Shown here in pieces: positions 9,201 through 54,272 of a DNA stretch of 57,029 nt. Under the pieces are notes generated by a model. It was given only the letters and a program-made list of their open reading frames with translations, was not told the origin of the DNA and did not search any database. A program made the position numbers and the translations under genes. Numbering within the stretch: position 1 is the stretch's first letter; each line of letters begins with the position of its first letter. The stretch comes from Patescibacteria group bacterium UBA3533 (GTDB taxonomy: Bacteria > Patescibacteriota > Minisyncoccia > Phycocordibacterales > Phycocordibacteraceae), in NCBI GenBank assembly GCA_002376865.1, contig DFOU01000006.1:30763-87791 (forward strand), read 5' to 3'.

Positions 9201-12200
9201 GTACCAACCCCTACATTTCCTGATGAATCAATAGAGAGCGCCGTATTTGTAATACCTCCCGAATATGAATTTGAGGTACCAAAGGCAAGGTTTGACCCTG
9301 ATCCATCAAACATTGCTCCAATACGTACACTCGGTGCCGAATAGTCTGCAGTGTACATTCCCTCGATAAGAGAAATATAATTTCCAGCACTATAGTCTGT
9401 TTGCGTTACAAGCACCCCTTCTCCAAATGTTGCATTTTCAAATGTTGCACCAAGCCTGTTTGCCCCCTCAATTTCAAGCCTGGCATTTGGTGTAGTGTCT
9501 CCAACTCCTATATTTCCTTCTTCTCCATCAATATAAAGTCGTTCGGTAGTGCTTGCATAGAATATAAGGTCATTAGTTACGTGACTATAGGTAATTAAAC
9601 CAGCAGAAGCATGTTTTTCATCTGCAAATGCAATGGCTCCAAGTTCTGCACCAGAGTTTGGAGATGCAATGGTAAATCCTGCATATCCATTGTTATTTCC
9701 TCGAACTGTAAGGTGATTGTATGCAGTATTTGCAGCTTCAGTAAATGTTCCTGTTGGCGTGTACTCAACAAGCAGTCGCTGTGTTGCTGATGGAGAATCA
9801 CTTCCAATTCCTACGTTTCCTGCATCATCAATACGCACGCGTTCTGTAAGAGTGTTTGCACCATCAGCAGTTGTAAGGAATACGATGCGTCCAGGAGTGT
9901 CACCAGCCCCAGGAGTACCATCTACCTGAAATCGAATTCCTGCAGCAACACTATCGTAATCAACACCATCATCAACAGAGGCAAAGAAGTTACCTATTGT
10001 ATCGCCATCTTGCACAATGCTGTTTGAACCAACAGTAGTGCCGCGCGATTTGAAAAAGGCAATATTTGTTCCTCCAGCATTATTACTCCACCTTCCAAGC
10101 GTAGCACCAGAATCAGAATATTCTGTCCCCAATACCTGAACACCAAAATCTGCATATGCTATTGTTTGAGCGTAATCATGCCCCACGATAAGAGAATTAC
10201 CATCTGAAATACTTGTTGAGCCATTTATGTTTAGAACATTATTTGGCGTTGTAGTACCAATTCCTACGTTTCCTGAATCATCAATTACAAGACGGTACTC
10301 ATTTACTGCAGAGTCAGAGCTGTCATTACTTTGGTAGATATAGAAGAGGTTATTACCCGCCGAGTGAGTGTCTCCAAGGTTTCCAACAGCCCACTTGTAT
10401 ACATCTTCATTTTTGAAATCGAATTGAGCATACGAAGTATCGCTACCCACATCAATAGAAACACCTGTTGCCGTATCCTTATACACGTGTAGGAGTGATT
10501 GTGGTGATGAAGTACCAATACCTACGTTGCTCGTCGTCGCCAGATATAACTGATTACTTGTTGAATCTGCTGCTAAGTACAGTGGACGAATAACGCCAGT
10601 ACCGCCAGCACTAGTACGAATTTGGTATGCCTGCTCACTTGCTTGGTAACCAACGCCTAGGGATTCCAGATTTGTATTATCAGCAGGGGAACCTACACCA
10701 AATAGCGAGATTTTATTATTATCGGTACCATCACCATCATTGGTGAACATCCACAAACTTGAGTGGGTACCAGCTTGTTGACTCTGCACTACAAAGCGGC
10801 CATAAGTCGTAGCACCAATATTGGCTGTGTTACCTAAGCGATAGGTTTGGTAACTTGGGTCACCAAACTCAATGTCGCCAGTCACAGTTAACTTGGATGT
10901 TGGCGTTGAAGTACCAATACCCACATACCCAGCAGAGTCTACATACAGCGTGTTACTTGGTGTAGCTGGCTCAATCTGAAACGGTGTATTTCCTGATGCG
11001 TCTTCAATATAGAAGACTGATGAACCTGTAAGTCCAATATCGTATTGGTATGATGAACCTCGAGCAATACGAATATCTCCTCCTGCTGACGGCCCCTCAA
11101 ACTGAGCAATAATAGTTGAAGCAGAAACTACATCCAGCTGTGCATCAGGAGTACTGTCGTTAATTCCAACATTTCCGGTACCAAGAACAGTCAATCGCTC
11201 TTCTGGTGTAGCACCAGTCCAGAGTGAGATATTACGAGAGTTACTTGCAGCCTCAAACTCAAGTCCTGTGTCATTTGCCCTAATTTCTGTATTGTATCCA
11301 GAACTTATGTCTTCTACATCAAGACGTAGTCGTCCAGTAGCACCCCCTGCAGTGTTTGTAATAATAATTCCCTTTCCATCAAGGTTGGTAAGTGAGTGTG
11401 CATTTTCTCCAACTGCAACCCTCCCTGCTGTTGCATCTACATAAAATGCTTGAGCATTTCCTGCTTCTCCCACATTAAAGTCTCCATCTACATCGAGAAG
11501 GTATCCTGGAGATGTTGTTCCAATACCTACGTTTCCATCACCAGTGATAATAAACTTCGTATCAGAATCAGTTGGAGTTGCTGAACCATTAGACCTAGCT
11601 TTAAATAACACATCTGTTGAATCAGCATCACCATCTACAATCAACCCAACTGTTGCTCCACCATTACCCGCCAAGAAGTGCCCTGCTGCATCTCCAGATA
11701 TTGTGCCTCCTTGAACTACAAACTTGTGGACAGGTGTTGTGGTACCAATTCCCACACTTCCTCCCTGACTATTAAGCACCAAGTCTCTATTAAAGGTGCC
11801 TCCTTGATCCACTGCTTCAATATATCCATAATTCTCATCTGTAGCGTACCCAATCAATAGACGCTCTGTATCGTCAGTATTTCCTCGAATTGAGAACTGT
11901 GATTCAACATTTGTTGTAAATCGTGACGCGGCAAGGTCTTTCTGTACGATAAGCCCTGTCCCCGTTGTCGCGGTGTCAACAATATCAAGCTTTGCACCTG
12001 GACCTGCCTCACCGATTCCTACGTTTCCAGAAGCATCAATAGACCATCCAAGATTTCCATCATTATATGCTTGCAAATTGGGGCTTACGTAACGCAATCC
12101 AGTATTTCCACTTGTATGCTTTAGTAAATAACCGCTCTTTGCTGAATTTATAGTGTTAGCAAAGTAAGCTCCTCCCTCAACAGCAAACAAAGAAACTGGA

Positions 12201-15200
12201 GAGCTAGTACCAATACCTACGTTTCCAGAATTATCTACGATAAATATGTCTCCATCATTTGATGTATTTGAAGAAATACCAAAGTATCCATCTTCGTGAT
12301 TATCTGAAACTTCAAGTGTAAAGTCTGGAGTGTTATCTCCATTTACTCCGACCGTTCCATCACGAGTAACAGTAAAGAGGTTTGCAATAAACGCTCCAAT
12401 ATCATCTGCTGACTGCACATTAAAGCTACTATCTGTATCTCCAGTACCTCCAGTGTAGTTAAATCGCATTAACTTATACCCTGCTGAGGCTCCTGATGTG
12501 TCCTCAAGAATAAATGCTGGGTTGTTCTCTGCAATATGAACCTTTCTTCGAGGTGTGGTTGTACCAAATCCAACATTTCCAGAGCCATCCACCCGTAGCC
12601 GCTCCGTATCATCAGTTCGTACAATTACAGCCCCACTTGCAGAAGTATTAATAAGTTCAAGCGCACTTTGTCTATTTGCGGTACTTAAACTAGAACCATT
12701 GTATTGGATACGGGCAACATTACTTAGGTCCTCTTGGAATCGAATCTGACTAAAGCTTGTTTCGTCTGTAATATCAAGATCAATTCTTGCCTCTGTAGAA
12801 TCAGCAATCACAAGGTTTGATCCTGGCGTCGTAGTACCAATACCTACATTTCCACCACTAAGGAATGAATATCCATTTCCATCAAGCTTAATAGCATCAG
12901 CACCAGCATTTGTTTGAATCTCAAGCACACCAGCAGAATCTGATGAGTCTTGGTACAGCTGGATCAATTGATTTGTATTTGCTGAATTCTCAAGATAAAT
13001 ACCTCCGGTAATACCTCCACCACTTGCTTTCACTGCAAGTTGCGCATTTGGACTCTCTGTTCCAATACCAAACTCCCCCGCACTATCAAGGGTCACTACA
13101 TTACTTCCCCCGATATACCACCCAAATCCAGCAGTCTCTTGGTTATCAAGATTAAACTGCCCATCTGAAGCAAGAGACAATAGTGTTCCATCTGAAGAAG
13201 TTTCTCCATTACTTCTTGTAAACTGAATCTTCACCGCATCGCTTCCTCCAAGATGTAGAAGGTTTTGTGGGTCAGTTATTCCGATACCTATGTTTCCGCC
13301 ATCCTTTGCAGTAAGGACACTTGCGCCACCTGCACGAAGGAACAAATCATCTCCTGCTGCACGAAGTCCAACGACCCCAGAGCTGGTAGTGGTGTTGTCT
13401 ACCAATGAAAGATCTGCATTTGCATCACTAGACTCAAGTGTCAGAACATTATTTGAAGTACCTGCATCAACATGAAGTTTTGTAGTCGGACTTGTAGTAC
13501 CAATACCCACATTTCCAGAACTTAGAATACGTACAAGCTCGGTACTACCATTATTAAATACAAACTGCCCTCCTGAGCCATCACTTCGTGCAGTTAAAGC
13601 AAAGGTATTACCCGCTTGTGTAATCTGCCCTGTCTCTCCTCCATCATCTACAAACTCAAGGTACCCTTGTGTTCCATAGTCTCCTGCTGTGATGGTTCCA
13701 ATTACTTGAAGGGCAGTGTCTGGACTTGTGGTACCAATACCTACGTCCCCACTACTTTCTATAGTAAGTAGTGCAGAGCCATCTTCTTGGAATTGGTGCG
13801 CCACAGTTGCACCTCCAACCATGTTGTACACAGCATTGCTTGCACCCGCACCAATAGATAGATATGAGGGGTCATCTGTTCTTCCAAGGCGTAGCTGGTC
13901 TGCCGCAGAATCCCGTGCAACATGAAGGGCACTTTCTGGAGAAGTAGTACCAATACCTACATTTCCACTACTATCTATCCTTACCTGCTCTGATGCATTT
14001 GTATACAAAGACAAAGAGTCACTGGCATTAGCATAGAGAATGCGTCCCATCCAATCACTACTATCATCTCCAAATATCAACTGAGCCTCCGATGCTGCAT
14101 TGGTAATGATTGATATTTCAGCACCTCCTGAAGTATTGACGACTTCTATTTCATGATCCGGACTTGTCGTACCAATACCCAAACTTCCTCCATTGTTAAT
14201 GTAGTTATCGACACCAGAGGCTCCAGAGAATAATATTTTTGATGAACTACCATCTCGCAAGAGCAGCTCACCCGCAGTACCATTTCTATCAAGAATACCA
14301 ATTGCTGTTGAGCCATTCACAATTGATAGTCCTCTTGCATCATCTACAAATAAATTGAGAAGGCCTCCGGTACCAAACTGAGCACGCTGTGTACCACCAA
14401 GCGCAATGTCCAACTTATCTCCAGCACTAGTATAGATACCTGTATTAGGATCTGATGCAAAGCTTACTGATGGCAAGCTTGCGGAACCATCTTTTCCAAG
14501 ATACTGAGCACTTGTAAAGATATGATTGTCATTATAAAGACCTAGCTGATCACTTGAATTAAACCGTATAAGGTTTAGTGCTGCTCCTGCAGTAGTTACT
14601 CCCTGCAATGAGTAGTTATTTGTTCCAAGCTTTATATTTCCACCCTGAACAACAAACTTCTGATCCGGTGAGGTGCTTCCAACTCCTACATTTCCAGACG
14701 CATCTACAACAAAATCAAAATCTGTAAGTTGACTATCCTGCCCAATAAAGAACTTGCCCAAACCATCCCCTCCGTCGCGCACAAATCCAATAGCACCTAG
14801 CTGAGAATTTGTAACCCCCGTGTCAGATATTTGAAATTCAATTGCAGAACCAAAATCGTCTGCTGCATCTACAGAACTATTCGCTACAAATTCTGTAACA
14901 GGCCTAGGCGCATTACTCGTCCCTGTCCCTCTTGAAAACCTTGAAATGGCACCTACACCTGTACCTTCAAAATTGATACCTGTGCTACCTGTTACAGAAA
15001 GATTGTAATTTGGACTTGTAGTACCAATACCTACGTTTCCAGAGTCATCAATCGTCACCCGTTCAGTACCTGCAGTATAAAGCCGCAAATAATCCTCATC
15101 TGAGCTCTCCTCTGCTGTTACGTAGGTATCCTGATCAATATCAATTACCCCACCAAGTCCTAACCAATTGCTTCCGTTATACCCTTCATACTGTGTGGTA

Positions 15201-18200
15201 TTGGTGTTGTACCTGATCTGTCCCGTAAGTTCAGTAGAAGGACGCTGCGCAGTGGTACCAACTGGGATACGAATGGCATCAGTTGCATAGATATCAACTG
15301 TTGTTGCGGGAGTGGTAGTACCAATACCCACATTCCCAGAGCCATCTACCACAAGCGCCGCCCCTGTTGCCCCTGAATTTGGACTTGGATTTATGTAGAA
15401 GACATCTCCCCCTGCTGCATCAGTAGTTGCGGTAACTCCAAGCTCATACTGATCTGTAGAGCCTTGTGCAAACTGAAGGAATGGATAGTTTGCAACTCCT
15501 GCTGATTCAATGCGAACCCCCGAGTTTGCACTTGAAACTACATCAAGATGTGTGGCGCTTCCTGACCCCTCAATTACAAGTGCACTTGCAGGAGTGGTTG
15601 TACCAATACCAAGCCGATTTGTACTATCATTCCAGAAGAAATTACTATTATCTTGCGCGAGCGCTCCACTTGAGTTTGCAAACACGACTGACCCCTCTGT
15701 AAATCCAGCAGGAGCAATGGTTCCATACAGAGAGCCATCTACCTCAAGGTCCCCACTAATGTACGCACTATTATAATAATCGGCTGCAGCAATAGAGCTT
15801 GGTGTCCCTGTACCTACAGTTAACCGTACAGATGGCGAAGAACTTCCAAGTCCCAGATATCCATTTATGTCAAAGTTCGCAAGTTCAAGTCCGTTATTGT
15901 CTTGCACGGTAAAGAGGTTTCCAGTTTGTGAAGATGCAGCACGCACAGCAAGGGTACTTGTTCCTGTTGACCCATTATCATTTTGAATGAAAATGTTCTG
16001 GTTGAAGTCAAATCGATCCTCTGACGCATCCCATCCAATTACAGCATTCGGTACTACTACTCCTCGATAGAATACGAGAGATGCATCTTCTCCATCTGAA
16101 GTCGCATTGTCTGAGTTAATAGAAAATGAAGCATTGTTTGTTCCTGCAATTGAAGTGCTTGCTGCAGAAAGGTTATTTATAGTTGCACTATCAAAGTACG
16201 CATCGTCCCAATAGTATGCGGGAGATCCAAGGTCATATGTTGCATTTGATGTAGGGATAATTGCCACACTTGAATCAACCTGCCCTGAAGAGAACTGGAA
16301 CTGTGTTGTTTCGTTATATCCAATATGAAGTGGCAACCCACTTGAAGAGTACACACGGAATGAGTCGCCTATGTATCCATTTAGAAGTCCCACATTGCTT
16401 CCTCCTGCAACAAGCCGCACTCGTGGCTCAGTTGTAGCTCTGAAAATAGCAGGCTTACTTGCAGACACGGTCACATCAAGTGGGGACTCTGGAGTTGTGT
16501 CATTAATTCCAACATATCCATTTGCAAGCACTGTAAGGCCAGATGCTTGTGAACCTCCACTTGCTGCAGAGAAGGTTCCTGTAGTTGTTGCATTAGTAGA
16601 AGTAAGTTCTGGGAATGTAGACGCAACAGATGTAGATGTAGCAGTAAAGTACTCAGCAACCGCTTGCCCTACTACTGAGAGCTTTGCATATGGAGATGTT
16701 GTTCCAATACCTACACTTCCATCCTCCTGTACACGGAAGAGCTCTGTACCACCTGCAAGAGAAGCACTATCTTTCGCAACAATAAATGCTGAGGTTGTCT
16801 CGTCATTGTTTGAATCAATATTGAAATAAAAACTTCCGGGAGCATTTACACCTGCACGCAACGCAGAATCCCGAGGAATATATGCACTGTTAGAAGAAAA
16901 TCCAATAAAGTTACCACTTGAAAGTGTTGCAATGTTTCCATCAACTCCAAGCGCTTGCCCTGGACTGTTTGTGTTTATACCAACCTGCGCATTTGTGGCA
17001 TCTACAAACAGAGCGTTTGAGCTTCCTGCTTCTCCTACACGGAAGTCTCCATCTACATCAAGAAGATATCCTGGAGTTGTTGTACCGATTCCAAGACGAT
17101 CATTCCCATTATCAAAAAATAAGTTGCTATTATCTTCGACCACAAGACCTCCTGTTCCAATAAATGGAATTGATCCTGCAGTTAGGCTGCTGATTGTAAG
17201 ATTTGTTGTCGTTGCATTAGTAGTTGTGGCATTTGTTGCAGTTAGATTTGTAAGTGTCGCAGTAATTGCCTCTAATGCTGTTGTGTAGAAGTTTGTTGAG
17301 GTTGCGTTTGTAACTACAGAGTTGTTACTAAAGAAGTTGGTTGAAGTTGCATTTGTTGTAGATGCATTGTTTGCAAAAAGATTTGTGCTTGTTGCGTTAG
17401 TTGTTGACGCATTTATTGCAAAGAAGTTTGTTGTTGTTGCAGATGCAAGAGTTGCTGTTGTTCCTGTAAGTGGCCCTGTGAGCGTTGTAGTAGCAAGAGT
17501 GGTTGTCCCTGAGGCAATAAGTGTCGGAATTGTAAGCGGCCCTGTGAGCGTTGTTGTGGCAGCATTCAACGTATCAAATGTTCCTGTATTTGCATTCACA
17601 CTTGATCCACGGAATGTTGACCCAGTAATTTCACTGTTTCGAATGATTCCGCTTAAGAATTCTCCATCACGAATGATTGTTCCGCTGATATCCTCAATCT
17701 TGTTCACCCACTGAATGGTTTCAATATTCTGAACAATCTGATTTCGGTTAACTGCAGTTAGTTTCTGGATCTCAGCTGAAAGCGCTGCGTGAAGTGCAGT
17801 AATACTTGAATCTACGTAAAGCTTATTTACGTCAGTGCTTGCAAAGAAATTCTGAGTAACATTTCGAGGAGCAATGTACACAGGAGCTGCTGGCTCATCT
17901 TCCTTAATGACAACATTGGTTTGAGCAGGCCCCGGATTTACAAGCAGTACCGGATCTTTCTTTCGACCAAAGATTCGATCGAAAATATCTCGTACGCCAC
18001 CTGCAACTCCTCCGATTACATTTGCTTGAGCTTCCTCAACTTTCTCTGCTGTATTTGTTGCAAGAGGAGATTTTACGCCTGCAAGTTTTGATCCAATATT
18101 CTCTGGAACTGCCATTACAGTTTCTACTGCTGGAACAAAAACATTTGCTGCAATACGCTCTCCAGCAAACTTAATCATTCCCATAACTTTTTCTGTAGAA

Positions 18201-19486
18201 ACATCTAGACCTGAATTTGCACCTGCAAGGATTGTTGTAGGTAAATCAAACCGAGCATACGCATACCCTGTTCCAATCGTATCTCCTGTTGATTCAATCG
18301 CATCCTTATACGTATCTGTAAGTGCATACGTGCTATCAACGAAGCTGTAAATGAAATCTACATACCCGCCAATAATTGCTCTTCCAAGTTTTGGAGAATT
18401 CTCTCGTACAGAACTTCCAATCTTAATGTTTGCCTCAGGAATTGATTGTGCTGAAGTGAGAATAGCTCCTCCTGTGTTATACGGCACAGAAGCAAGAGTG
18501 TTTGCAAGCACAAAACTTCCATCAACAAATCCGTAGACTAGCTCCGCCTGTGCTTTTGGAAGCTCTTGAGCAAGAACAGCAAACGCCCCTAGACCTTCTT
18601 CATATGAGTTCAAAATGTTGGCGCTTGCTGCCTGTGCAATATTCTGCACAGCAAGAGCATTTGAAAGGCTTTCCTTGCCAAGATATTTAACAAACCCCGT
18701 GTACGCATCAACTGACCCATGAGCTGCTACGACAAGCCCTTCTCCAAGCGCCTTATATCCATTCCAAATATCTGTAGAGCTTGGAAGCATCAAACTTCTT
18801 CCTGGAACATACGTAGAAGCGAAACTTTTTTGAACACCAGTGTACTTAAAGCGATTTCCAAAAGACTCTACTTCTGCAAATCCTGTTGCAAAAATATTAT
18901 TGGCCTCAAACTTTATTTCATTAGAAACTTTATTTTGTGCAACTACATAGTTGACCCGAGCCAGTTCTGGGTGACGCTCTGATCGAGCAAGTACTCGATG
19001 CACATCACTTGCCCTCTCATGCACAGCGGAAATCAATTTAAATGGAAGAGAAGAAATTCCTGTTGCCCCAGCCAAAGAGTATCCTCCAAAAACAATTAGA
19101 ACAGTTAGGGCAAGTGCTGCTGCATTTTCAAATGGAAGCTTATCGAAACTTTTTGCAAAAATATTCTTAAAGTCATCTTGAGCCTTAGGGGCTTGAACTT
19201 TCTTATATTCAATTTTTCTTTCCTTAGAGAGAGATTCTCTTTTGATTTCTTTTACGGCTTCTTTAATATCAAAAAATTCAAGTAGAGCTTTTTTCTCAAC
19301 AACCCAAGAGCGTCCAATCCTACTTGCAGGAATTTTTCCTTCTCGAGCAAGTCGACCTACGTAGTCAGAAGTACGCCCGACAATGGACGAAGCTTCTTTT
19401 GTTGAAATAAATTTTTTATGCTCGGCAGACATAGTTCGGAAGAACGATTTCCCTATTATTTTAACCAATATTTTCAATATCGACAC
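6239..19486 (-). CDS. Giant (4,415 aa) membrane-anchored fibre protein: N-terminal HTH, one TM helix, T/N-rich repeats, about 33 GNVGIGTTSP tail-fibre-like repeats, 2 peptidase-S74-like domains and 2 Ig-like (DUF5011-like) domains
   Basis: One uninterrupted 13,248-nt ORF. The annotated start at 19486 is GTG. An in-frame ATG at 19432 (MSAEHKKFISTKEA...) is at least as plausible. Domain calls are listed as separate sub-features. Confidence 0.85.
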   Translation of the reverse strand: MSILKILVKIIGKSFFRTMSAEHKKFISTKEASSIVGRTSDYVGRLAREGKIPASRIGRSWVVEKKALLEFFDIKEAVKEIKRESLSKERKIEYKKVQAPKAQDDFKNIFAKSFDKLPFENAAALALTVLIVFGGYSLAGATGISSLPFKLISAVHERASDVHRVLARSERHPELARVNYVVAQNKVSNEIKFEANNIFATGFAEVESFGNRFKYTGVQKSFASTYVPGRSLMLPSSTDIWNGYKALGEGLVVAAHGSVDAYTGFVKYLGKESLSNALAVQNIAQAASANILNSYEEGLGAFAVLAQELPKAQAELVYGFVDGSFVLANTLASVPYNTGGAILTSAQSIPEANIKIGSSVRENSPKLGRAIIGGYVDFIYSFVDSTYALTDTYKDAIESTGDTIGTGYAYARFDLPTTILAGANSGLDVSTEKVMGMIKFAGERIAANVFVPAVETVMAVPENIGSKLAGVKSPLATNTAEKVEEAQANVIGGVAGGVRDIFDRIFGRKKDPVLLVNPGPAQTNVVIKEDEPAAPVYIAPRNVTQNFFASTDVNKLYVDSSITALHAALSAEIQKLTAVNRNQIVQNIETIQWVNKIEDISGTIIRDGEFLSGIIRNSEITGSTFRGSSVNANTGTFDTLNAATTTLTGPLTIPTLIASGTTTLATTTLTGPLTGTTATLASATTTNFFAINASTTNATSTNLFANNASTTNATSTNFFSNNSVVTNATSTNFYTTALEAITATLTNLTATNATTTNATTTNLTISSLTAGSIPFIGTGGLVVEDNSNLFFDNGNDRLGIGTTTPGYLLDVDGDFRVGEAGSSNALFVDATNAQVGINTNSPGQALGVDGNIATLSSGNFIGFSSNSAYIPRDSALRAGVNAPGSFYFNIDSNNDETTSAFIVAKDSASLAGGTELFRVQEDGSVGIGTTSPYAKLSVVGQAVAEYFTATSTSVASTFPELTSTNATTTGTFSAASGGSQASGLTVLANGYVGINDTTPESPLDVTVSASKPAIFRATTEPRVRLVAGGSNVGLLNGYIGDSFRVYSSSGLPLHIGYNETTQFQFSSGQVDSSVAIIPTSNATYDLGSPAYYWDDAYFDSATINNLSAASTSIAGTNNASFSINSDNATSDGEDASLVFYRGVVVPNAVIGWDASEDRFDFNQNIFIQNDNGSTGTSTLAVRAASSQTGNLFTVQDNNGLELANFDINGYLGLGSSSPSVRLTVGTGTPSSIAAADYYNSAYISGDLEVDGSLYGTIAPAGFTEGSVVFANSSGALAQDNSNFFWNDSTNRLGIGTTTPASALVIEGSGSATHLDVVSSANSGVRIESAGVANYPFLQFAQGSTDQYELGVTATTDAAGGDVFYINPSPNSGATGAALVVDGSGNVGIGTTTPATTVDIYATDAIRIPVGTTAQRPSTELTGQIRYNTNTTQYEGYNGSNWLGLGGVIDIDQDTYVTAEESSDEDYLRLYTAGTERVTIDDSGNVGIGTTSPNYNLSVTGSTGINFEGTGVGAISRFSRGTGTSNAPRPVTEFVANSSVDAADDFGSAIEFQISDTGVTNSQLGAIGFVRDGGDGLGKFFIGQDSQLTDFDFVVDASGNVGVGSTSPDQKFVVQGGNIKLGTNNYSLQGVTTAGAALNLIRFNSSDQLGLYNDNHIFTSAQYLGKDGSASLPSVSFASDPNTGIYTSAGDKLDIALGGTQRAQFGTGGLLNLFVDDARGLSIVNGSTAIGILDRNGTAGELLLRDGSSSKILFSGASGVDNYINNGGSLGIGTTSPDHEIEVVNTSGGAEISIITNAASEAQLIFGDDSSDWMGRILYANASDSLSLYTNASEQVRIDSSGNVGIGTTSPESALHVARDSAADQLRLGRTDDPSYLSIGAGASNAVYNMVGGATVAHQFQEDGSALLTIESSGDVGIGTTSPDTALQVIGTITAGDYGTQGYLEFVDDGGETGQITQAGNTFALTARSDGSGGQFVFNNGSTELVRILSSGNVGIGTTSPTTKLHVDAGTSNNVLTLESSDANADLSLVDNTTTSSGVVGLRAAGDDLFLRAGGASVLTAKDGGNIGIGITDPQNLLHLGGSDAVKIQFTRSNGETSSDGTLLSLASDGQFNLDNQETAGFGWYIGGSNVVTLDSAGEFGIGTESPNAQLAVKASGGGITGGIYLENSANTNQLIQLYQDSSDSAGVLEIQTNAGADAIKLDGNGYSFLSGGNVGIGTTTPGSNLVIADSTEARIDLDITDETSFSQIRFQEDLSNVARIQYNGSSLSTANRQSALELINTSASGAVIVRTDDTERLRVDGSGNVGFGTTTPRRKVHIAENNPAFILEDTSGASAGYKLMRFNYTGGTGDTDSSFNVQSADDIGAFIANLFTVTRDGTVGVNGDNTPDFTLEVSDNHEDGYFGISSNTSNDGDIFIVDNSGNVGIGTSSPVSLFAVEGGAYFANTINSAKSGYLLKHTSGNTGLRYVSPNLQAYNDGNLGWSIDASGNVGIGEAGPGAKLDIVDTATTGTGLIVQKDLAASRFTTNVESQFSIRGNTDDTERLLIGYATDENYGYIEAVDQGGTFNRDLVLNSQGGSVGIGTTTPVHKFVVQGGTISGDAAGHFLAGNGGATVGLIVDGDADSTDVLFKARSNGSATPTDSDTKFIITGDGNVGIGTTSPGYLLDVDGDFNVGEAGNAQAFYVDATAGRVAVGENAHSLTNLDGKGIIITNTAGGATGRLRLDVEDISSGYNTEIRANDTGLEFEAASNSRNISLWTGATPEERLTVLGTGNVGINDSTPDAQLDVVSASTIIAQFEGPSAGGDIRIARGSSYQYDIGLTGSSVFYIEDASGNTPFQIEPATPSNTLYVDSAGYVGIGTSTPTSKLTVTGDIEFGDPSYQTYRLGNTANIGATTYGRFVVQSQQAGTHSSLWMFTNDGDGTDNNKISLFGVGSPADNTNLESLGVGYQASEQAYQIRTSAGGTGVIRPLYLAADSTSNQLYLATTSNVGIGTSSPQSLLHVYKDTATGVSIDVGSDTSYAQFDFKNEDVYKWAVGNLGDTHSAGNNLFYIYQSNDSSDSAVNEYRLVIDDSGNVGIGTTTPNNVLNINGSTSISDGNSLIVGHDYAQTIAYADFGVQVLGTEYSDSGATLGRWSNNAGGTNIAFFKSRGTTVGSNSIVQDGDTIGNFFASVDDGVDYDSVAAGIRFQVDGTPGAGDTPGRIVFLTTADGANTLTERVRIDDAGNVGIGSDSPSATQRLLVEYTPTGTFTEAANTAYNHLTVRGNNNGYAGFTIASPNSGAELGAIAFADEKHASAGLITYSHVTNDLIFYASTTERLYIDGEEGNIGVGDTTPNARLEIEGANRLGATFENATFGEGVLVTQTDYSAGNYISLIEGMYTADYSAPSVRIGAMFDGSGSNLAFGTSNSYSGGITNTALSIDSSGNVGVGTTSPDALLHAEIGGAGDIFKLQRSDVASDFSIDFAGGLTNFAISAGSEYTFSEGGAEHVRIDASGNVGIGTSSPASLLTVSKGGSNGVIQEIFTLDAGTQNLGVAGSGTVIGFDYLTTASAGGVGAYGDGTNPGIGIWGGTISGDPELYVNDAGNVGIGTTSPLGTVHVASAGSGQVSPNNSADDLIIENSAAAGISILTPNTAVGHLFFGDSDNATRGRLSYNHADNDISLWTNSTERLTIDSSGNVGIGETVPETKLEVSGGNILLTNNQSLQFEDTGGANRSLVTLDSSDLQTFGTVNNNATFQGFDVGFNAARSAGGTTDEAFLFTATNNLGVNDEVFQVADGGGNLLTVLGTGNVGIGTASPDSIKLDVEDDIEIGTGTTGCVRDADNTTLTGTCVSDERLKKNIQDLDPVLDRLAQLRGVTFEWRNDEFEWLNGQAGTNYGLIAQEVEAVFPEMVQEDDRGYKRVSYDTAFTTRLLQGIIELDEKLESRIGANGAIAIDALGNIGIGTTTPAYKLHVLGDAAATSFVNISTREEKKGIAYLDEARKDDILSKLKAVQIAEYRYNFESDDNPLRLGLIAEEAPSEVLSVSGKGVDIYKLATFTLASVQEIALKLETLEERIAALEASGVVAGSGGVFSTTTLKSAFAELGVLIEKGFAQFDALAFKQLIAQKDNDGEAAAGTGTIYAGNKLVLVENSQIKASSKVFITFTSPVVGSWFITDKANGSFRVTLDQVQNTDVTFDYFIVQTERDQAPVSDTGVVDTEEPVITIIGANPYYIATGTAYVEPGVTITDNVDQNLTYTLSVDGYSAETHPLDTSVAGEHVLTYKVLDTAGNLTTATRSVVVGADASLTSLNTGTSTEETTATITPAVVEETPVVEEEVVVEEAPVDEIAPVISLVGAAAIEITVGDSFTDEGATAADDIDGDITANIVVTGAVDTENAGLYTLTYTATDIAGNEASVSRIVTVVAVETPEAPVEDVVE
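6290..6514 (-). other. Ig-like domain 2 (DUF5011 / bacterial surface Ig-like) of the giant protein
   Basis: PVISLVGAAAIEITVGDSFTDEGATAADDIDGDITANIVVTGAVDTENAGLYTLTYTATDIAGNEASVSRIVTV matches the remembered consensus (P.I.l.G ... dpGatA.D..dGdlt ... G.Y.vtY.vtD.aGN). Confidence 0.7.
6653..6898 (-). other. Ig-like domain 1 (DUF5011-like) of the giant protein
   Basis: EEPVITIIGANPYYIATGTAYVEPGVTITDNVDQNLTYTLSVDG...HVLTYKVLDTAGNLTTATRSVVV. Confidence 0.65.
7313..7612 (-). other. Second, degenerate peptidase-S74-like (intramolecular chaperone) domain followed by a coiled-coil tail
   Basis: ISTREEKKGIAYLD...LKAVQIAEYRYNFESDDNPLRLGLIAEEAPSEVL...YKLATFTLASVQEIALKLETLEERIAALE parallels domain 1. The SDxRxKxNI entry motif is degraded to STREEKKGI. 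Confidence 0.55.
7724..7999 (-). other. Peptidase S74 / endosialidase-type intramolecular chaperone domain (canonical)
   Basis: SDERLKKNIQDL...LRGVTFEWRNDE...NYGLIAQEVEAVFPEMV...YKRVSYDTAFTTRLLQGIIELDEKLE. The SDxRxKxNI entry, the G(L/F)IAQEVE core and the C-terminal helix are the hallmarks I recall for PF13884. Confidence 0.8.
8000..17098 (-). repeat. Array of about 32 irregularly spaced (about 60-110 aa) repeats anchored on the G-N-V-G-I-G-T-T-S/T-P motif. One more copy lies between the two S74 domains.
   Basis: On the plus strand this shows up as recurring gtaccaatacctacgtttcc-type 20-mers, for example near 8110, 8455, 8730, 8990, 9205, 10255, 12210 and 15020. I counted 33 motif copies in the translation. 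Confidence 0.85.
17177..17596 (-). repeat. Thr/Asn-rich short-repeat segment (TTTLTGPL x2, and TNATSTNFF / NASTTNATSTN units)
   Basis: Residues about 631-770: ...TTTLTGPLTIPTLIASGTTTLATTTLTGPLTGTTATLASATTTNFFAINASTTNATSTNLFANNASTTNATSTNFFSNNSVVTNATSTNFYTT...TNATTTNATTTNLT. Confidence 0.8.
19055..19126 (-). other. Single predicted transmembrane helix of the giant protein
   Basis: NAAALALTVLIVFGGYSLAGATGI is preceded by a Lys-rich segment. The positive-inside rule then places the HTH in the cytoplasm. Confidence 0.65.
19271..19411 (-). other. N-terminal helix-turn-helix (excisionase/MerR-like, HTH_17-type) domain of the giant protein
   Basis: FISTKEASSIVGRTSDYVGRLAREGKIPASRIGRSWVVEKKALLEFF fits the pattern (hydrophobic)-T-x-x-E-A-A-x-x-L-G-V-S-x-x-T-(V/L)-x-x-(W/L)-x-x-x-G-x-(I/L)-P-x-x-x-(I/V)-G-R-x-(W/I/Y)-x-(F/I). 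Confidence 0.7.
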
Positions 19487-19516
19487 GTACTACATGTGGA
19501 TACAAATTATGTAAAA

Positions 19517-19533
19517 TACGTAATTTACGTAGT
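19517..19533. promoter_or_regulatory. TACGTAATTTACGTAGT double-TACGTA motif upstream of the giant gene
   Basis: 31 nt upstream of the GTG start and 85 nt upstream of the ATG start. It matches 15 of 17 positions of TACGTAGTTTACGTAGG at 26346..26362, in the same orientation. Confidence 0.4.
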
Positions 19534-19858
19534 AAGAATATTTGGACGAGAAAAGTATAAAAAGTGTTCAAAAAAATTCTTTTGAAAACAGTTTTTGCAT
19601 GAGAAAATCCTTATCTTTTTCAAAAACAGGTGTGCACAGGCTCTTAAACTGGGCGAGAAGTGTTCTTTTTTTAAAAAGAAAAGTAGCTTTTATAGAAAAA
19701 ATTTAATACTGTCCCCTCTGATCACATTGTTTCTAAACTCATTATTTTGCGACACACAAAATAACCGTTATAGCGAAATTTCTAAAAAACAAGCCATTTA
19801 AATAGATCATGAGAGTCTTCTCATAACTATTTGGATATCTTTTAATTACTTTTTTATA

Positions 19859-19873
19859 TATCCGAGATTTTAT
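19859..19873. repeat. TATCCGAGATTTTAT motif, copy 1
   Basis: Exact 15-mer, repeated at 20065..20079. It lies in the long spacer upstream of the giant gene. Confidence 0.7.
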
Positions 19874-20007
19874 ACTCACTTACACAAAGGGATTACAAGG
19901 ACGGGGCTTACAAAGCACATTTGAAGCTTTCAAAATACCTTTTATATCCATTGCATTTGCCTAACTAATGAAAGTCGATGATGCTGGCCAATCTTCCAAA
20001 ATCTAAA

Positions 20008-20030
20008 AAGAACTCCTTGTGAGAGTTCTT
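20008..20030 (-). terminator. Hairpin terminator candidate downstream of the small HTH-TM gene
   Basis: AAGAACTC-cttgtga-GAGTTCTT (8-bp stem), flanked by an A-run on one side and T-rich sequence on the other. On the minus strand it is followed by CTTTTTAGATTTT. Confidence 0.5.
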
Positions 20031-20064
20031 TCCCTTTATTTAAGCTATATCGCGTGTTTCTCGC

Positions 20065-20079
20065 TATCCGAGATTTTAT
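20065..20079. repeat. TATCCGAGATTTTAT motif, copy 2
   Basis: Exact repeat of 19859..19873. Confidence 0.7.
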
Positions 20080-20102
20080 CGATATATCTTTATTTTATAG
20101 GA

Positions 20103-20122
20103 TATCTCGGTTATCTCGGATA
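20103..20122. repeat. Two tandem inverted copies of the motif core (TATCTCGG and TATCTCGGATA)
   Basis: TATCTCGGATA is the reverse complement of TATCCGAGATA. The pair lies 8-27 nt downstream of the stop codon at 20130. Confidence 0.65.
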
Positions 20123-20129
20123 AACGTTC

Positions 20130-20882
20130 TTACTTTTTAGACTCAAAATGCTGCACTCCCAAAACATAATCTTTAACTCCTTGGTAAGCAGCGGCAACTG
20201 GAGAATCTGTATTGCGTGTGAGCACGTACCCTGTTGTAACCGTAAGAGCACCAACAAAAACTATTGCTAGTGCAGCGGCAACAACAAGCCCTGTCCCCGA
20301 CCAAGATCTCTGTACTGGCAGTGGACTTGGAGCAGGCTGAGCAACCTCTTTCTCTTCAACCTCCTCTTCTACTGAAATCTCTTCCTCTCTAGGAGCTGGT
20401 TCTGACTTTGTAATTGGAACCTGAACCTCTTCAGAAATTTTCTCCTCCTCCACTTCTTTATCTGCTTCACTTAAGAAAACTTCTTCATTCTCTGTAGGAA
20501 CCGCCTTCTGTGCCTTATACCAATCCTGCCAAGCGTTCTGCATCTCACTGAGAGCGTTCTCTTCGACAGGTGCTTCTTCCGCCATAGGCACCTCTTCTAC
20601 TGCTGGAGCTTCTGCCTCTTCCAGAACTTCTTCGGTATTACTTACAAGCACCTCAAGCTGTGGAGCTGGCGCCTCCTTCTCTTCTTTTACTGAAACCTGT
20701 GCTTCCCCAAACTTATGCTTCTTTATTGAAACCTCATCTATATACCAATTGCGCCCTACTAATTGAGCGTCAATCTTCCCTCCTCGAGCAAGCTGCCCGA
20801 CGTAATCTGTTGTATATCCTGTAATCTCTGCTGCACGTTTTGTTGATAGGTACGTACGACCATTAAGTGTTAGCTCTTTCAT
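20130..20882 (-). CDS. Small HTH / acidic linker / TM protein, paralogous to the N-terminal module of the giant protein
   Basis: YLSTKRAAEITGYTTDYVGQLARGGKIDAQLVGRNWYIDEVSIKKHKF shares 21 of the first 37 aligned residues with the giant protein's HTH. It is followed by a Glu/Pro/Val-rich linker and the TM helix GLVVAAALAIVFVGALTVTTGYVL. The start is set at ATG 20882 because the longer ORF (to 20918) would run through the hairpin at 20895..20916. Confidence 0.75.
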   Translation of the reverse strand: MKELTLNGRTYLSTKRAAEITGYTTDYVGQLARGGKIDAQLVGRNWYIDEVSIKKHKFGEAQVSVKEEKEAPAPQLEVLVSNTEEVLEEAEAPAVEEVPMAEEAPVEENALSEMQNAWQDWYKAQKAVPTENEEVFLSEADKEVEEEKISEEVQVPITKSEPAPREEEISVEEEVEEKEVAQPAPSPLPVQRSWSGTGLVVAAALAIVFVGALTVTTGYVLTRNTDSPVAAAYQGVKDYVLGVQHFESKK

Positions 20883-20894
20883 GCATACAGTATA

Positions 20895-20916
20895 GCCGAG
20901 ACCCACGAGTCTCGGC
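20895..20916 (-). terminator. Hairpin GCCGAGAC-ccacga-GTCTCGGC between gatB and the HTH-TM gene
   Basis: 8-bp GC-rich stem located 29 nt after the gatB stop codon. The trailing sequence is only weakly T-rich, so it may instead be an attenuator or an RNA-processing element. Confidence 0.4.
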
Positions 20917-20944
20917 AAGAAGAAGTTCGAGATAACCTTATTTT

Positions 20945-25840: not shown

Positions 25841-25860
25841 TGTGGAATGAGCATAGCACA

Positions 25861-25884
25861 AAACCCTCCATTTCTGGAGGGTTT
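25861..25884 (-). terminator. Hairpin terminator after the histone-like gene
   Basis: AAACCCTCCA-tttc-TGGAGGGTTT, a 10-bp stem located 17 nt downstream of the stop codon at 25901. Confidence 0.6.
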
Positions 25885-26212: not shown

Positions 26213-26214
26213 AG

Positions 26215-26228
26215 AATCTACGTAGATT
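26215..26228. promoter_or_regulatory. Perfect 14-bp palindrome AATCTACGTAGATT, 2 nt upstream of the histone-like gene's ATG
   Basis: Read directly from the sequence. It shares the CTACGTAG core with 9..16 and 26345..26352. Confidence 0.5.
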
Positions 26229-26342
26229 ATTTTTATATAAAGTCGACCCGTATACAGGAACTCACCTGCGTGTCCATGCATGTATTATCGAACACGAACG
26301 ACTCTCTATGCGTACAAAATAAAAAATTTGGGGATAAGTTAT

Positions 26343-54269: not shown

Positions 54270-54272
54270 ATC

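What the first reader, a model, noticed from the sequence alone, without database searches (positions are those of the whole stretch)
19271..20882. Paired HTH-TM modules: a 250-aa HTH / acidic linker / TM protein immediately upstream of the giant gene mirrors the giant protein's N-terminus
The two HTH segments are FISTKEASSIVGRTSDYVGRLAREGKIPASRIGRSWVV and YLSTKRAAEITGYTTDYVGQLARGGKIDAQLVGRNWYI. They share the skeleton (F/Y)(I/L)STK.A..I.G.T.DYVG.LAR.GKI.....GR.W, with 21 of the first 37 aligned residues identical. In both proteins a charged linker and a single TM helix follow. The small protein looks like a stand-alone copy of the giant protein's anchor module, with an extracellular tail of only about 30 aa. 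The genes are adjacent and co-oriented. They are separated by a 640-bp spacer that contains a terminator and repeated motifs. This suggests a functional pair, for example a partner or regulator that shares the same DNA or protein target at the membrane. I know of no characterised system of this kind.
Basis: partly seen in the sequence, partly recalled or inferred. Interest (0 to 1): 0.7.

Follow-up and report, generated by a model that had tools for sequence, protein, structure and literature searches.

The report
Paired membrane-anchored HTH genes, Patescibacteria
A small membrane-anchored protein and the giant surface-fibre protein next to it carry related DNA-binding-type domains on the inside of the membrane; this gene pair, with its own conserved promoter motifs, recurs in all 80 related ultra-small bacterial species examined and looks like an undescribed membrane-tethered control module for a surface fibre.

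Summary
The small gene (20130-20882, minus strand, 250 aa) and the giant gene (6239-19432, minus strand, 4397 aa) both begin with an excisionase/MerR-like winged helix-turn-helix (HTH_17). A single membrane helix follows in each. BLASTP between them gives E=5e-12.

The pairing is not local chance. All 80 GTDB species loci fetched show gatB, then the small HTH-TM gene, then a spacer. In 73 of them the next gene again starts with HTH plus TM. The two HTHs are ancient paralogs, not recent copies.

Both domains model confidently as the Xis/BldC/RacA/TraN DNA-binding fold.

Each gene has its own conserved promoter. The small gene looks leaderless and is bracketed by an inverted CGAGACGAGA(T/A)A repeat. 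The giant gene has a position-locked TTATCCACA (DnaA-box-like) element. In most lineages it also has a TCGGATATCCGA palindrome just upstream of (often directly abutting) the start codon. In the sampled DNA both repeat motifs are almost confined to this locus.

Best reading, inferred and not shown: two membrane-tethered DNA-binding proteins that (auto)regulate, and perhaps hold at the membrane, the gene of a variable tail-fibre-like surface protein. The closest analogues are the Vibrio transmembrane regulator pairs, which use a different DNA-binding domain. I found no literature on this module.

The parts
20130..20882 (-). Small gene S: 250-aa bitopic protein. It has a cytoplasmic winged HTH (aa 1-60), an acidic disordered linker containing a conserved MQxAWQxW(Y/F) helix (aa 109-126), a TM helix (aa 197-223) and a ~27-aa outside tail.
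   Evidence: ORF. Family alignment A2, with invariant TGY..DYV.Q..R....A..VGRNW. AF2 pLDDT >90 for residues 1-60. 182 homologues, all from Patescibacteria where a name is given.
20703..20882 (-). S winged-HTH domain (aa 1-60), of Xis/MerR-like type.
   Evidence: Pfam HTH_17 E=1.6e-3, below the cut-off. Foldseek top hits are Pukovnik Xis, RacA-DNA, BldC-DNA, TraN and RdfS, with probability 0.96-1.0 and target TM-score up to 0.77.
20214..20294 (-). S transmembrane helix (aa 197-223).
   Evidence: AF2 helix at 197-223. In 76 of 78 loci scored there is one hydrophobic segment, with 20-53 aa (usually 25-40) left after it; the other two small ORFs are cut by contig ends. In orthologues the basic residues lie on the N-terminal side of it.
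20883..20918 (-). Promoter of S. The -35 is TTGCCG (20918-20913). A palindrome, GCCGAGAC (20916-20909) / GTCTCGGC (20902-20895), occupies the spacer. The -10 is TATACT (20894-20889) and lies 6 nt before the ATG, so the mRNA is probably leaderless.
   Evidence: Promoter scan. Hairpin dG -16.1, z -4.0. Class-wide consensus ACGAGACGAGA(T/A)AGCCT-TATACT-N6-ATG.
20095..20122 (-). Repeat just after the S stop codon: TATCCGAGATAACCGAGATATCC followed by TATAAA. This is the window clade's version of the class-wide element found 3' of S.
   Evidence: In 51 other loci CGAGAC[GA]AGA[TA]A sits 5-34 nt (all but one within 20 nt) after the stop codon in reverse orientation, with only 6 hits elsewhere in 1.29 Mb.
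20065..20074 (-). ATCTCGGATA repeat, the inverse orientation of TATCCGAGAT.
19996..20031 (-). Intrinsic terminator of S: a 12-bp stem, a 5-nt loop and a U-rich tail.
   Evidence: dG -13.7, z -2.5. Comparable GC hairpins follow the post-stop repeat in other loci.
19859..19868 (-). Third ATCTCGGATA repeat, in mid-spacer.
19517..19531 (-). Clade-specific palindrome TACGTAAATTACGTA, upstream of the giant gene's promoter.
   Evidence: Conserved in the window, L001/L009, L002, L007 and L008, but not in L003 or L004.
19495..19503 (-). DnaA-box-like element GTATCCACA (consensus TTATCC[AC]CA), held at a fixed position upstream of the giant gene.
   Evidence: TATCC[AC]CA occurs 70 times in the spacers of 76 loci, always in the forward orientation and nearly always about 60-82 nt upstream of the giant's HTH; there are 120 further hits on both strands of the remaining 1.18 Mb.
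19433..19463 (-). Core promoter and 5' leader of the giant gene. The -10 is TAAAAT (19463-19458). AAATCGTTCTTCCGAAC (19450-19434) is the degenerate local version of the class-wide TAATTCGGATATCCGAC palindrome and abuts the ATG.
   Evidence: Alignment A1. The palindrome TCGG[AT][TA]A[TC]CCGA scores 41 forward-strand hits in the 76 spacers, against 3 elsewhere in 1.18 Mb. In GTDB the exact 16-mer is followed by an HTH ORF in 27 loci, one match per contig.
6239..19432 (-). Giant gene G: 4397 aa from the ATG. It has a cytoplasmic wHTH plus a long helix, a TM signal-anchor, a ~4,270-aa GNVGIGTTSP-repeat fibre, a Peptidase_S74 intramolecular chaperone domain and two C-terminal Ig-like domains.
   Evidence: HTH_17 at aa 9-54, Peptidase_S74 at aa 3812-3871 (80 bits), Bact_surface_Ig-like x2. 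PHROGs tail-fibre hits.
19193..19432 (-). G cytoplasmic module (aa 1-80): a winged HTH (aa 8-46) followed by one long helix (aa 47-80). This is the only part of G conserved across the class.
   Evidence: AF2 pLDDT >90 for residues 11-70. Foldseek hits TraN, Xis, RacA, RdfS and BldC. Conservation profile.
19058..19132 (-). G transmembrane signal-anchor (aa ~101-125), preceded by a lysine-rich segment.
   Evidence: AF2 helix 101-123. A hydrophobic segment lies between residues 90 and 203 (usually 95-160) in the partner proteins of most loci.
7820..7999 (-). Peptidase_S74 (intramolecular chaperone, auto-cleaving) domain of G, which marks a trimeric tail-fibre-like ectodomain.
   Evidence: E=1.6e-22. 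PHROGs tail-fibre families.

Best explanation
S (small) and G (giant) are an ancient paralogous pair of N-in bitopic membrane proteins. This locus, gatB - S - spacer - G, is a core feature of the Paceibacteria/Parcubacteria-type Patescibacteria; the window is about 98% identical at S to MAG UBA2103.

Shown:
- Both proteins expose an Xis/MerR-like winged HTH to the cytoplasm.
- S is held by a C-terminal TM helix with almost nothing outside the cell.
- G continues through a signal-anchor into a hypervariable, trimeric, tail-fibre-like ectodomain.
- S and G are separate transcription units, each with its own highly conserved promoter, and each promoter carries a motif almost confined to this locus.
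- The first motif is a tandem or inverted CGAGA(C/T) repeat. It lies in the -35/-10 spacer of the apparently leaderless S promoter and recurs, inverted, just after the S stop codon.
- The second is a TCGGATATCCGA palindrome, with extra ATCCGA half-sites, around the -10 and leader of G. A position-locked TTATCCACA element lies upstream of it.

Inferred:
- The HTH domains bind these repeats, so the pair acts as membrane-tethered transcriptional (auto)regulators.
- S would loop or repress its own unit through the two flanking repeats.
- S and/or the first-translated HTH of G would occupy the operator at the G promoter.
- This would limit how many copies of a 13-kb, Sec-exported gene are expressed at once. 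It would also keep that promoter at the membrane, so that transcription, translation and export stay coupled (transertion).
For: Synteny holds in L001-L006 and in the 80 GTDB species loci. gatB lies upstream in 80/80, and a second HTH+TM ORF follows in 73/80; six of the other seven contigs end within about 1.1 kb.

S is under strong purifying selection: the HTH is 78% identical across species, and its basic residues K15/R16/R33/R44 are at least 90% conserved.

Both HTHs score at or near Pfam HTH_17 and TIGR01764. Both fold with pLDDT >90 into the Xis/BldC/RacA/TraN/RdfS type, whose solved examples are DNA complexes or DNA-binding proteins.

The cis-elements are locus-specific. TCGG[AT][TA]A[TC]CCGA scores 41 forward-strand hits in the spacers of 76 loci, against 3 hits elsewhere in 1.18 Mb. 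CGAGAC[GA]AGA[TA]A has 74 hits flanking S, against 6 elsewhere in 1.29 Mb. TATCC[AC]CA has 70 forward-orientation hits in the 76 spacers, at a nearly fixed position.

The exact 16-mer of the G operator occurs once per Patescibacteria contig and is followed by an HTH ORF in 27 cases.

The operator positions fit repressor or MerR-type logic: one lies within the -35/-10 spacer, the other overlaps the leader.

There is a weak lineage-level covariation. The variant operator TCG[CT]TCATCCGA goes with LCR->L[AVT]R in G's recognition helix (6/12 vs 1/55) while S is unchanged.

Pairs of transmembrane regulators that capture a promoter at the membrane are experimentally established in Vibrio (PMC11856585, PMC9977878, PMC8546550).
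Against: No binding data of any kind exist. The conserved motifs could be read by other factors, such as DnaA at TTATCCACA, sigma factors or unknown regulators.

The window's own clade has a degenerate G operator (AAATCGTTCTTCCGAAC) and a rearranged repeat set, so the motif-protein assignment is least clear in this very window.

The covariation is confounded by phylogeny.

S has no sensor domain, so what it would respond to is unknown. Its conserved linker helix (MQxAWQxW) has no role in this model.

Transcription start sites are inferred only from -10-like hexamers.

HTH domains in bitopic proteins are not always DNA binders (RodZ; my own knowledge).
Confidence: 0.5

Rival explanations
1. The HTH domains are protein-protein adaptors rather than DNA binders, as in RodZ. 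S would be a dedicated cytoplasmic-face partner, escort or anchor for the N-terminus of G. For example, it might nucleate or position the trimeric fibre, or couple it to Sec/YidC or a cytoskeletal element. Other factors would then read the conserved DNA motifs.
For: The S and G pairing is obligate. S has a conserved tryptophan-rich helix in an otherwise disordered linker, which a pure DNA-binding model does not need. G has a conserved long helix after its HTH that could oligomerise. secA lies three genes upstream. RodZ shows that an HTH on a bitopic protein can bind a protein (MreB) instead of DNA (my own knowledge).
Against: The fold type is Xis/MerR-like. Every close structural neighbour is a DNA binder. 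The conserved basic residues sit on helix 1, at the end of the recognition helix and on the wing. There are no Pfam hits to RodZ domains. Two highly specific repeat motifs lie exactly at the two genes' promoters, and this model leaves them unexplained.
Confidence: 0.2
2. The pair is a chromosome-to-membrane tether, that is a RacA/Par-like centromere function. Membrane-anchored wHTH proteins would bind a small set of sites to attach or segregate the nucleoid in these minimal cells. The adjacent fibre gene would simply share the N-terminal module.
For: Among the top structural matches are RacA-DNA and the pSK1 Par centromere-binding domain. S is a conserved core gene in a housekeeping neighbourhood of gatB, obg and secA. 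A DnaA-box-like element is locked to the locus.
Against: In about 1.2 Mb of sampled flanks the motifs occur essentially only at the two promoters. The G operator is single-copy per contig. GC skew does not change sign anywhere in the window, so this is not the origin. A tether does not explain why a hypervariable surface fibre carries the same module.
Confidence: 0.1
3. This is a domesticated phage remnant with no joint function. The excisionase-type HTH and the tail-fibre gene would be left over from a prophage, and the resemblance would be just shared membership of the very large HTH_17 family.
For: G's N-terminus hits the phage excisionase/regulator family phrog_66. Its C-terminal region hits many tail-fibre PHROGs and Peptidase_S74.
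Against: The chromosomal position and orientation are the same in 80 species. There are no integrase, capsid or other phage genes; the flanks are gatB/obg/secA and GAPDH/pentose-phosphate genes. S has no PHROG hit. Both proteins carry TM anchors. The promoter architecture is conserved.
Confidence: 0.03

Closest known systems
Transmembrane transcriptional regulator pairs of Vibrio: ToxR+TcpP, ChiS+TfoS, and VtrA/VtrC leading to VtrB
   Same: Both are bitopic proteins with an N-terminal cytoplasmic DNA-binding domain and one TM helix. Two such proteins act together at one promoter. Capturing the promoter at the membrane enables local expression of an envelope machine (PMC11856585, PMC9977878, PMC8546550).
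   Different: The DNA-binding domain here is Xis/MerR-like HTH_17, not OmpR/PhoB-type or the others. S has no periplasmic sensor, only a tail of about 27 aa. The second 'regulator' is itself the 4,397-aa structural product. The lineage is Patescibacteria. DNA binding is not demonstrated.
BldC, RacA, phage Xis/RdfS and TraN (small MerR-like/excisionase winged-helix DNA binders)
   Same: The fold is the same: beta-alpha-alpha-beta-beta wing, target TM-score 0.67-0.77, rmsd 1.2-2.5 A. These proteins bind direct or inverted short repeats, often cooperatively. This matches the tandem CGAGA repeats and the relatives that carry two tandem HTH domains.
   Different: Those proteins are soluble and none has a TM anchor. 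Sequence identity is only 14-25%. A profile search of PDB sequences found nothing.
RodZ
   Same: The topology is the same: a cytoplasmic N-terminal HTH, a linker, a single TM helix, N-in.
   Different: RodZ has an XRE-type HTH that binds MreB, and a sizeable periplasmic domain (my own knowledge). There is no sequence or Pfam relationship here.
MYRF-type membrane-bound transcription factors (DNA-binding domain + Peptidase_S74 intramolecular chaperone domain + TM)
   Same: One polypeptide combines a DNA-binding-type domain, a TM helix and an S74 auto-cleaving trimerisation domain.
   Different: The order and topology differ. Here the S74 domain lies about 3,700 residues beyond the TM, on the outside. 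Its cleavage cannot release the HTH. It serves fibre folding, as in phage tail fibres.
Phage tail fibres and tailspikes with a C-terminal intramolecular chaperone
   Same: G's ectodomain has GNVGIGTTSP-type repeats, Peptidase_S74 and many tail-fibre PHROG hits.
   Different: G is a chromosomal core-locus gene, membrane-anchored through an N-terminal signal-anchor, with a cytoplasmic HTH. About 520 residues, including the Ig-like domains, follow the S74 domain.

Membership tests
Pfam HTH_17 (PF12728) / TIGR01764 excisionase-family DNA-binding domain | Sequence match at or above the curated cut-off | tested here: met
   G scores 34.0 bits (N-terminal 400 aa) and 30.0 bits (full length), against a cut-off of 27. 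S itself scores 19.1 bits, below the cut-off. Many S relatives carry a precomputed PF12728 hit, and S aligns to G at E=5e-12. TIGR01764 gives G 28.0 bits against 28.8, just below.
Pfam HTH_17 (PF12728) / TIGR01764 excisionase-family DNA-binding domain | Winged-helix fold of the Xis/MerR type | tested here: met
   AF2 pLDDT >90 for both domains. Foldseek probability 0.96-1.0 to Xis 4j2n, BldC 6ama, RacA 5i44, RdfS 8dgl and TraN 4p0z.
Pfam HTH_17 (PF12728) / TIGR01764 excisionase-family DNA-binding domain | Binds DNA | not testable with these tools
   There is only indirect support: locus-specific repeat motifs at both promoters.
Transmembrane transcriptional regulators (ToxR/TcpP/CadC/VtrB type) | N-terminal cytoplasmic DNA-binding domain followed by a single TM helix | tested here: met
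   S has its HTH at 1-60 and its TM at 197-223. G has its HTH at 8-46 and its TM at about 101-125. Basic residues lie on the N-terminal side of the TM.
Transmembrane transcriptional regulators (ToxR/TcpP/CadC/VtrB type) | OmpR/PhoB-type winged-helix DNA-binding domain | tested here: not met
   Only HTH_17/excisionase-type hits were found and there is no Trans_reg_C hit. The structural neighbours are of the Xis/MerR type.
Transmembrane transcriptional regulators (ToxR/TcpP/CadC/VtrB type) | Extracytoplasmic sensor domain | tested here: not met
   S has only about 27 residues outside the membrane. G's ectodomain is a structural fibre.
Transmembrane transcriptional regulators (ToxR/TcpP/CadC/VtrB type) | Regulates a promoter while membrane-anchored | not testable with these tools
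   This needs ChIP, reporter or EMSA experiments.
MerR-family regulators | MerR-type HTH profile match and a C-terminal effector-binding domain | tested here: not met
   There is no PF00376 or PF13411 hit at E<=1. G does have a long helix after the wHTH, and the S operator lies in an 18-bp -35/-10 spacer. These are resemblances only.
RodZ | XRE-type HTH (HTH_25) plus a DUF4115 periplasmic domain | tested here: not met
   No such Pfam hits were found.
Peptidase_S74 intramolecular-chaperone tail-fibre proteins (the giant only) | S74 domain match above the cut-off | tested here: met
   80 bits against a cut-off of 22, at aa 3812-3871. Tail-fibre PHROGs down to E=7.8e-24.
Peptidase_S74 intramolecular-chaperone tail-fibre proteins (the giant only) | Part of a virion or prophage | tested here: not met
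   The context is housekeeping chromosome, conserved in 80 species.

The most novel reading that the evidence does not exclude
S and G form a new kind of self-referential, membrane-tethered nucleoprotein switch. The HTH of the nascent giant fibre, together with S, would bind the operator that abuts the giant gene's own start codon. This would physically hold the 13-kb gene at the translocon (obligate transertion). It would also feed the occupancy or assembly state of the surface fibre straight back to its promoter. A structural surface protein would then double as its own transmembrane transcription factor, and the position-locked DnaA-box-like element would tie expression to the replication cycle.
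Probability: 0.2. Interest if true: 0.85.

Novelty: new variant of a known kind. Interest (0 to 1): 0.66.

Why it matters
Patescibacteria (CPR) make up a large share of bacterial diversity. They live attached to other cells, and almost nothing is known about how they regulate or build their surface structures.

This module is a core-genome feature in every one of the 80 species sampled. It links a very conserved membrane-anchored HTH protein to the most variable and largest surface protein of the cell. It also comes with compact, sharply defined candidate operators that can be tested directly in vitro, without cultivating the organisms.

If the HTHs bind these sites, three things follow:
- Transmembrane transcription regulators would extend to a new DNA-binding fold and a new phylum.
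- It would be an example of a structural protein carrying its own regulator domain.
- It would give a natural system for studying transertion of giant genes.

If they do not bind, the pair would define a new protein-protein anchoring module for giant fibres. Homologues of that module number in the thousands: 3,454 clusters at 50% identity.

Tried and rejected
- Known RNA in the 697-bp spacer. Rfam found nothing at gathering thresholds and only chance-level hits at E<=1.
- A hidden small gene in the spacer. An all-against-all comparison of spacer peptides from 77 loci found only translations of the conserved promoter DNA.
- Recent duplication or gene conversion between S and G. This is rejected: within-genome identity is 0.409 and cross-genome identity is 0.406, and the window clade is not exceptional.
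- Replication origin at the spacer. This is rejected, because GC skew keeps one sign across the whole window and there is only a single DnaA-box-like site.
- An invertible or mobile cassette bounded by the inverted repeats around S. This is unlikely: the orientation is identical in 80/80 species and no recombinase lies nearby.
- Prophage origin. This is rejected on context.
- Sequence-profile search of the PDB with the S family. There was no meaningful hit, so fold comparison was used instead.
- Word-indexed homology search with the giant's N-terminus. It gave only 2 weak hits. The exhaustive phmmer search was needed.
- A collection-wide scan for the 16-mer operator. It is dominated by chance hits in other phyla, 92 of 119, so it cannot define a regulon. 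It supports only single-copy use in Patescibacteria.
- Literature searches for this architecture in CPR or giant-gene papers. Nothing was found.

Full report
**What is in the window**

On the minus strand the gene order is secA (23351-25861), obg (22344-23348), gatB (20945-22357), a small ORF (20130-20918 from TTG) and a 4,415-aa ORF (6239-19486 from GTG). The small ORF gives 250 aa from the ATG at 20882.

Downstream of the giant ORF lie GAPDH, rpiB, rpe and transketolase genes. Further upstream lie Wzy_C, a flippase, NeuB and cytidylyltransferase genes. The setting is therefore ordinary chromosome. A partial 16S rRNA gene lies at the window's end.

The best DNA-level relative is MAG 'Patescibacteria group bacterium UBA2103', at 98% identity over the small protein.

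**Checking the observation**

- BLASTP of the small protein against the giant's N-terminus gives 26/70 identical, E=5e-12.
- A six-frame phmmer scan finds only these two copies in the 57 kb window.
- Pfam HTH_17 is above its cut-off for the giant (34 bits against 27) and below it for the small protein (19 bits). TIGR01764 'excise' behaves the same way.
- Both proteins have one hydrophobic helix after the HTH. In the small protein it spans residues 197-223, leaving a tail of about 27 residues. In the giant it spans about residues 101-125.
- The spacer terminator at 20031-20007 folds at -13.7 kcal/mol, z -2.5.
- The repeats are real. Four of the window's nine ATCTCGG sites lie in 19862-20119, and no shuffle reached nine.

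I make three corrections.

- Orthologous gene calls and the conserved promoter put the giant's start at ATG 19432. The spacer is then 697 bp.
- The giant's linker is K/E-mixed and basic, not acidic.
- Only the HTH is homologous between the two proteins.

**Is the pairing conserved?**

Yes, to a striking degree.

Five contigs carrying homologues of the small protein at 42-64% identity show secA-obg-gatB-S, a spacer of about 650 bp, and then a large or giant ORF. Where the ORF was not cut by the contig end it was marked HTH_17. A sixth, more distant contig keeps gatB - S - large ORF, with two extra small genes between gatB and S.

A pattern-plus-tblastn scan of one genome per GTDB species returned 80 loci. 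Their records are titled Paceibacterota, Parcubacteria, Kaiserbacteria, Wolfebacteria and Minisyncoccia. Some are titled Saccharibacteria.

I ran my own hmmsearch over six-frame translations of these loci.

- gatB lies directly upstream in 80/80.
- A second HTH opens the next same-strand ORF in 73/80.
- Six of the seven exceptions are contigs that end within about 1.1 kb.

Wherever the contig allows it to be scored, S has one TM with 20-53 (usually 25-40) residues left after it. The partner has a hydrophobic segment between residues 90 and 203 (usually 95-160) in most loci.

The partner's size varies widely. Complete ORFs in the fetched loci range from 243 to 2,922 aa, many more run off the locus at over 3,000 aa, and called orthologues reach 4,698 aa. 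The conserved unit is therefore 'two HTH-TM genes in tandem', not 'small plus giant'.

In four loci an extra HTH gene sits between S and the canonical partner, and the canonical partner keeps the canonical promoter.

**Relationship of the two HTHs**

I aligned both sets to one HMM.

- S-S identity across species is 0.78.
- G-G identity across species is 0.55.
- S-G identity within a genome is 0.409, and S-G identity between genomes is 0.406.

They are ancient paralogs with no gene conversion. S is the slowly evolving member. The window's own clade is not exceptional.

An exhaustive phmmer search of 1.84 billion cluster representatives with the giant's first 140 residues gave 3,454 hits at E<=1e-3. 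The top six are giants of 3,195-4,698 aa. Most of the rest are proteins of about 300-350 aa with two tandem HTHs. Several further giants are interspersed, up to 7,214 aa. The HTH(-HTH)-TM module is therefore widespread on both small and giant proteins.

**Fold**

AF2 on the S family alignment gives pLDDT >90 for residues 1-60. The topology is beta-beta-alpha-alpha-beta-beta-alpha. The model also shows:

- a confident helix at 109-126, the invariant M114/W118/W121 motif;
- the TM helix;
- a short C-terminal helix;
- disorder in the acidic remainder.

AF2 on the giant's first 140 residues gives the same winged helix, followed by a single 34-residue helix (47-80) and the TM. That helix is the only other part of G conserved across the class.

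Foldseek against the PDB ranks the following highest for both models, at probability 0.96-1.0:

- mycobacteriophage Xis;
- RacA-DNA;
- BldC-DNA;
- the DNA-binding T4SS protein TraN;
- the excisionase RdfS.

Among the close small-domain matches (Xis, BldC, RdfS), rmsd is 1.2-2.5 A and target TM-score up to 0.77.

E-values are weak (>=0.016), as expected for a 50-residue domain. A profile search of PDB sequences found nothing. The 'non-DNA-binding fold' refutation therefore fails.

**Cis-elements (the main new result)**

The spacers are poorly conserved overall. They contain no conserved peptide and no Rfam family. The last ~100 nt before G and the ~60 nt before S, however, are conserved across the whole class.

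*The G promoter.* Its consensus is TTATCC[AC]CA, about 20 nt, (T)CCGAAAT, about 8 nt, TAnAAT, nTAGnTAATTCGGATATCCGAC, and then the start codon, usually at once and otherwise within about 30 nt.

- TATCC[AC]CA scores 70 hits in the spacers of 76 loci, all in the forward orientation and nearly all at one of two offsets (about -62 and -72). There are 120 hits on both strands of the other 1.18 Mb.
- The palindrome TCGG[AT][TA]A[TC]CCGA scores 41 forward-strand hits in those spacers, against 3 elsewhere.
- In GTDB the exact 16-mer is followed by an HTH ORF in 27 loci, one match per contig. The other 92 hits are chance matches in other phyla.

*The S promoter.* Its consensus is ...CTATT(C/T)CAT-ACGAGACGAGA(T/A)AGCCT-TATACT-N6-ATG.

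- The -10 lies six bases before the start codon, so the mRNA is probably leaderless. This is an inference.
- A tandem CGAGA repeat fills the -35/-10 spacer.
- The same 12-mer recurs in reverse orientation 5-34 nt (all but one within 20 nt) after the S stop codon in 51 loci.
- There are 23 strict promoter hits and only 6 hits elsewhere in 1.29 Mb.
- S is thus bracketed by an inverted repeat 818-1,036 bp apart, usually followed by a terminator.

*The window's clade is a variant.* The differences are:

- P_S carries the palindrome GCCGAGAC/GTCTCGGC (20916-20895; hairpin dG -16.1, z -4.0).
- The post-stop element is TATCCGAGATAACCGAGATATCC (20122-20100).
- Two ATCTCGGATA copies follow (20074-20065 and 19868-19859).
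- The G operator has degenerated to AAATCGTTCTTCCGAAC (19450-19434).
- The upstream box reads GTATCCACA (19503-19495).

**Mechanism**

Shown:

- two paralogous N-in bitopic proteins with an Xis/MerR-type wHTH;
- class-wide synteny;
- separate transcription units;
- two different, locus-specific, repeat-type motifs at operator-like positions.

Inferred:

- The HTHs bind those motifs.
- S autoregulates through its two flanking repeats, possibly by looping.
- S and/or G's first-translated HTH occupy the operator at the G start. This would throttle expression of the 13-kb Sec-exported gene and tether it at the membrane.

A weak hint that G's own HTH reads the G operator comes from one variant. The operator TCG[CT]TCATCCGA accompanies LCR->L[AVT]R in G's recognition helix (6/12 vs 1/55) while S is unchanged. 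Shared ancestry could explain this equally well.

I put about 0.5 on this model. The rivals are a RodZ-like protein-protein adaptor role (0.2), a RacA-like tether (0.1) and a phage remnant (0.03). The remainder is left unassigned.

**Comparison with known systems**

Functionally, the nearest systems are the Vibrio transmembrane regulator pairs: ChiS+TfoS (PMC11856585), ToxR+TcpP (PMC8546550) and VtrA/VtrC leading to VtrB with transertion of T3SS2 (PMC9977878). Membership of that group is not claimed. The DNA-binding domain type and the sensor domain both fail the test, and binding itself is untested.

Structurally, the domain belongs with the BldC/RacA/Xis/TraN group. Those proteins are soluble.

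The giant's ectodomain is tail-fibre-like, with Peptidase_S74 and many tail-fibre PHROGs. MYRF combines the same three domain kinds, but in an order that allows release of the DNA-binding domain. Here the S74 domain lies outside the cell, about 3,700 residues from the TM.

Full-text searches, including the giant-gene preprint and a 2026 CPR pilus preprint, found no description of this module.

**Verdict**

The finding is real, conserved and undescribed. Its interpretation as a functional pair is well supported, and its DNA-binding mechanism is plausible and directly testable. I class it as a new variant of a known kind, with interest of about 0.66.

Noticed in passing
window 19495-19503 (-), and the same position in 70/76 related loci: A near-perfect DnaA-box sequence sits at a fixed distance, about 55 nt, upstream of the giant gene's operator. 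The consensus is TTATCC[AC]CA; the window has GTATCCACA. It is always in the same orientation. A weaker inverted version (TGT[TG]nA[TC]AA) lies upstream of the small gene's promoter. It could be a DnaA-dependent (cell-cycle) input or a site for one of the HTH proteins.
   Followed up: partly
window 20880-20894 (-), and 43+ related loci: The small gene's -10 hexamer (TATACT) ends 6 nt before its ATG, with no Shine-Dalgarno sequence. This implies a leaderless mRNA, and the arrangement is conserved across the class.
   Followed up: partly
related loci L012, L025, L034, L037, L039, L040, L045, L046 (15-45 nt after the small gene's stop codon): In these loci the post-stop repeat is a full palindrome, for example TATCTCGTCTCGGCAAGACGAGATA. 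In most others only the reverse arm is strict. Its geometry resembles a second, antisense copy of the S promoter, including a -10-like TTATTTA. It might therefore drive an antisense RNA.
   Followed up: partly
window 19517-19531 (-): The palindrome TACGTAAATTACGTA is conserved only in the UBA2103-type clade (window, L001/L009, L002, L007, L008). It lies just upstream of the DnaA-box-like element.
   Followed up: no
L006, L013, L067, L074; proteins P0026, P0034, P0056, P0102 and most hits: Many relatives carry two tandem HTH domains before the TM, in ~300-350-aa proteins and in giants up to 7,214 aa. Some loci hold three HTH-TM genes in a row.
   Followed up: partly
window 53911-57029: The rRNA region is split by protein genes. 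The order is a partial 16S rRNA (56293-57029, -), a MurD-like ligase gene (54284-55555, -), tRNA-Ile(GAT) (53911-53984, -) and a MurC-like ligase gene (52624-53907, -).
   Followed up: no
window 25901-26281 (-): A 126-aa lysine-rich ORF just downstream of secA (on the minus strand) gives a sub-threshold match to histone H1-like nucleoprotein HC2 (33.9 bits, cut-off 40).
   Followed up: no
window 16001-18000: This is the only 2-kb block in the window with positive GC skew (+0.027, against about -0.15 elsewhere). It coincides with the low-complexity T/S/N/A-rich repeats (TTNATSTN...) near the giant protein's N-terminal ectodomain.
   Followed up: no
window 1534-2052 (-): A 172-aa protein with a type IV pilin N-terminal methylation motif (N_methyl, E=1.3e-7) lies next to ABC transporter genes.
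   Followed up: no
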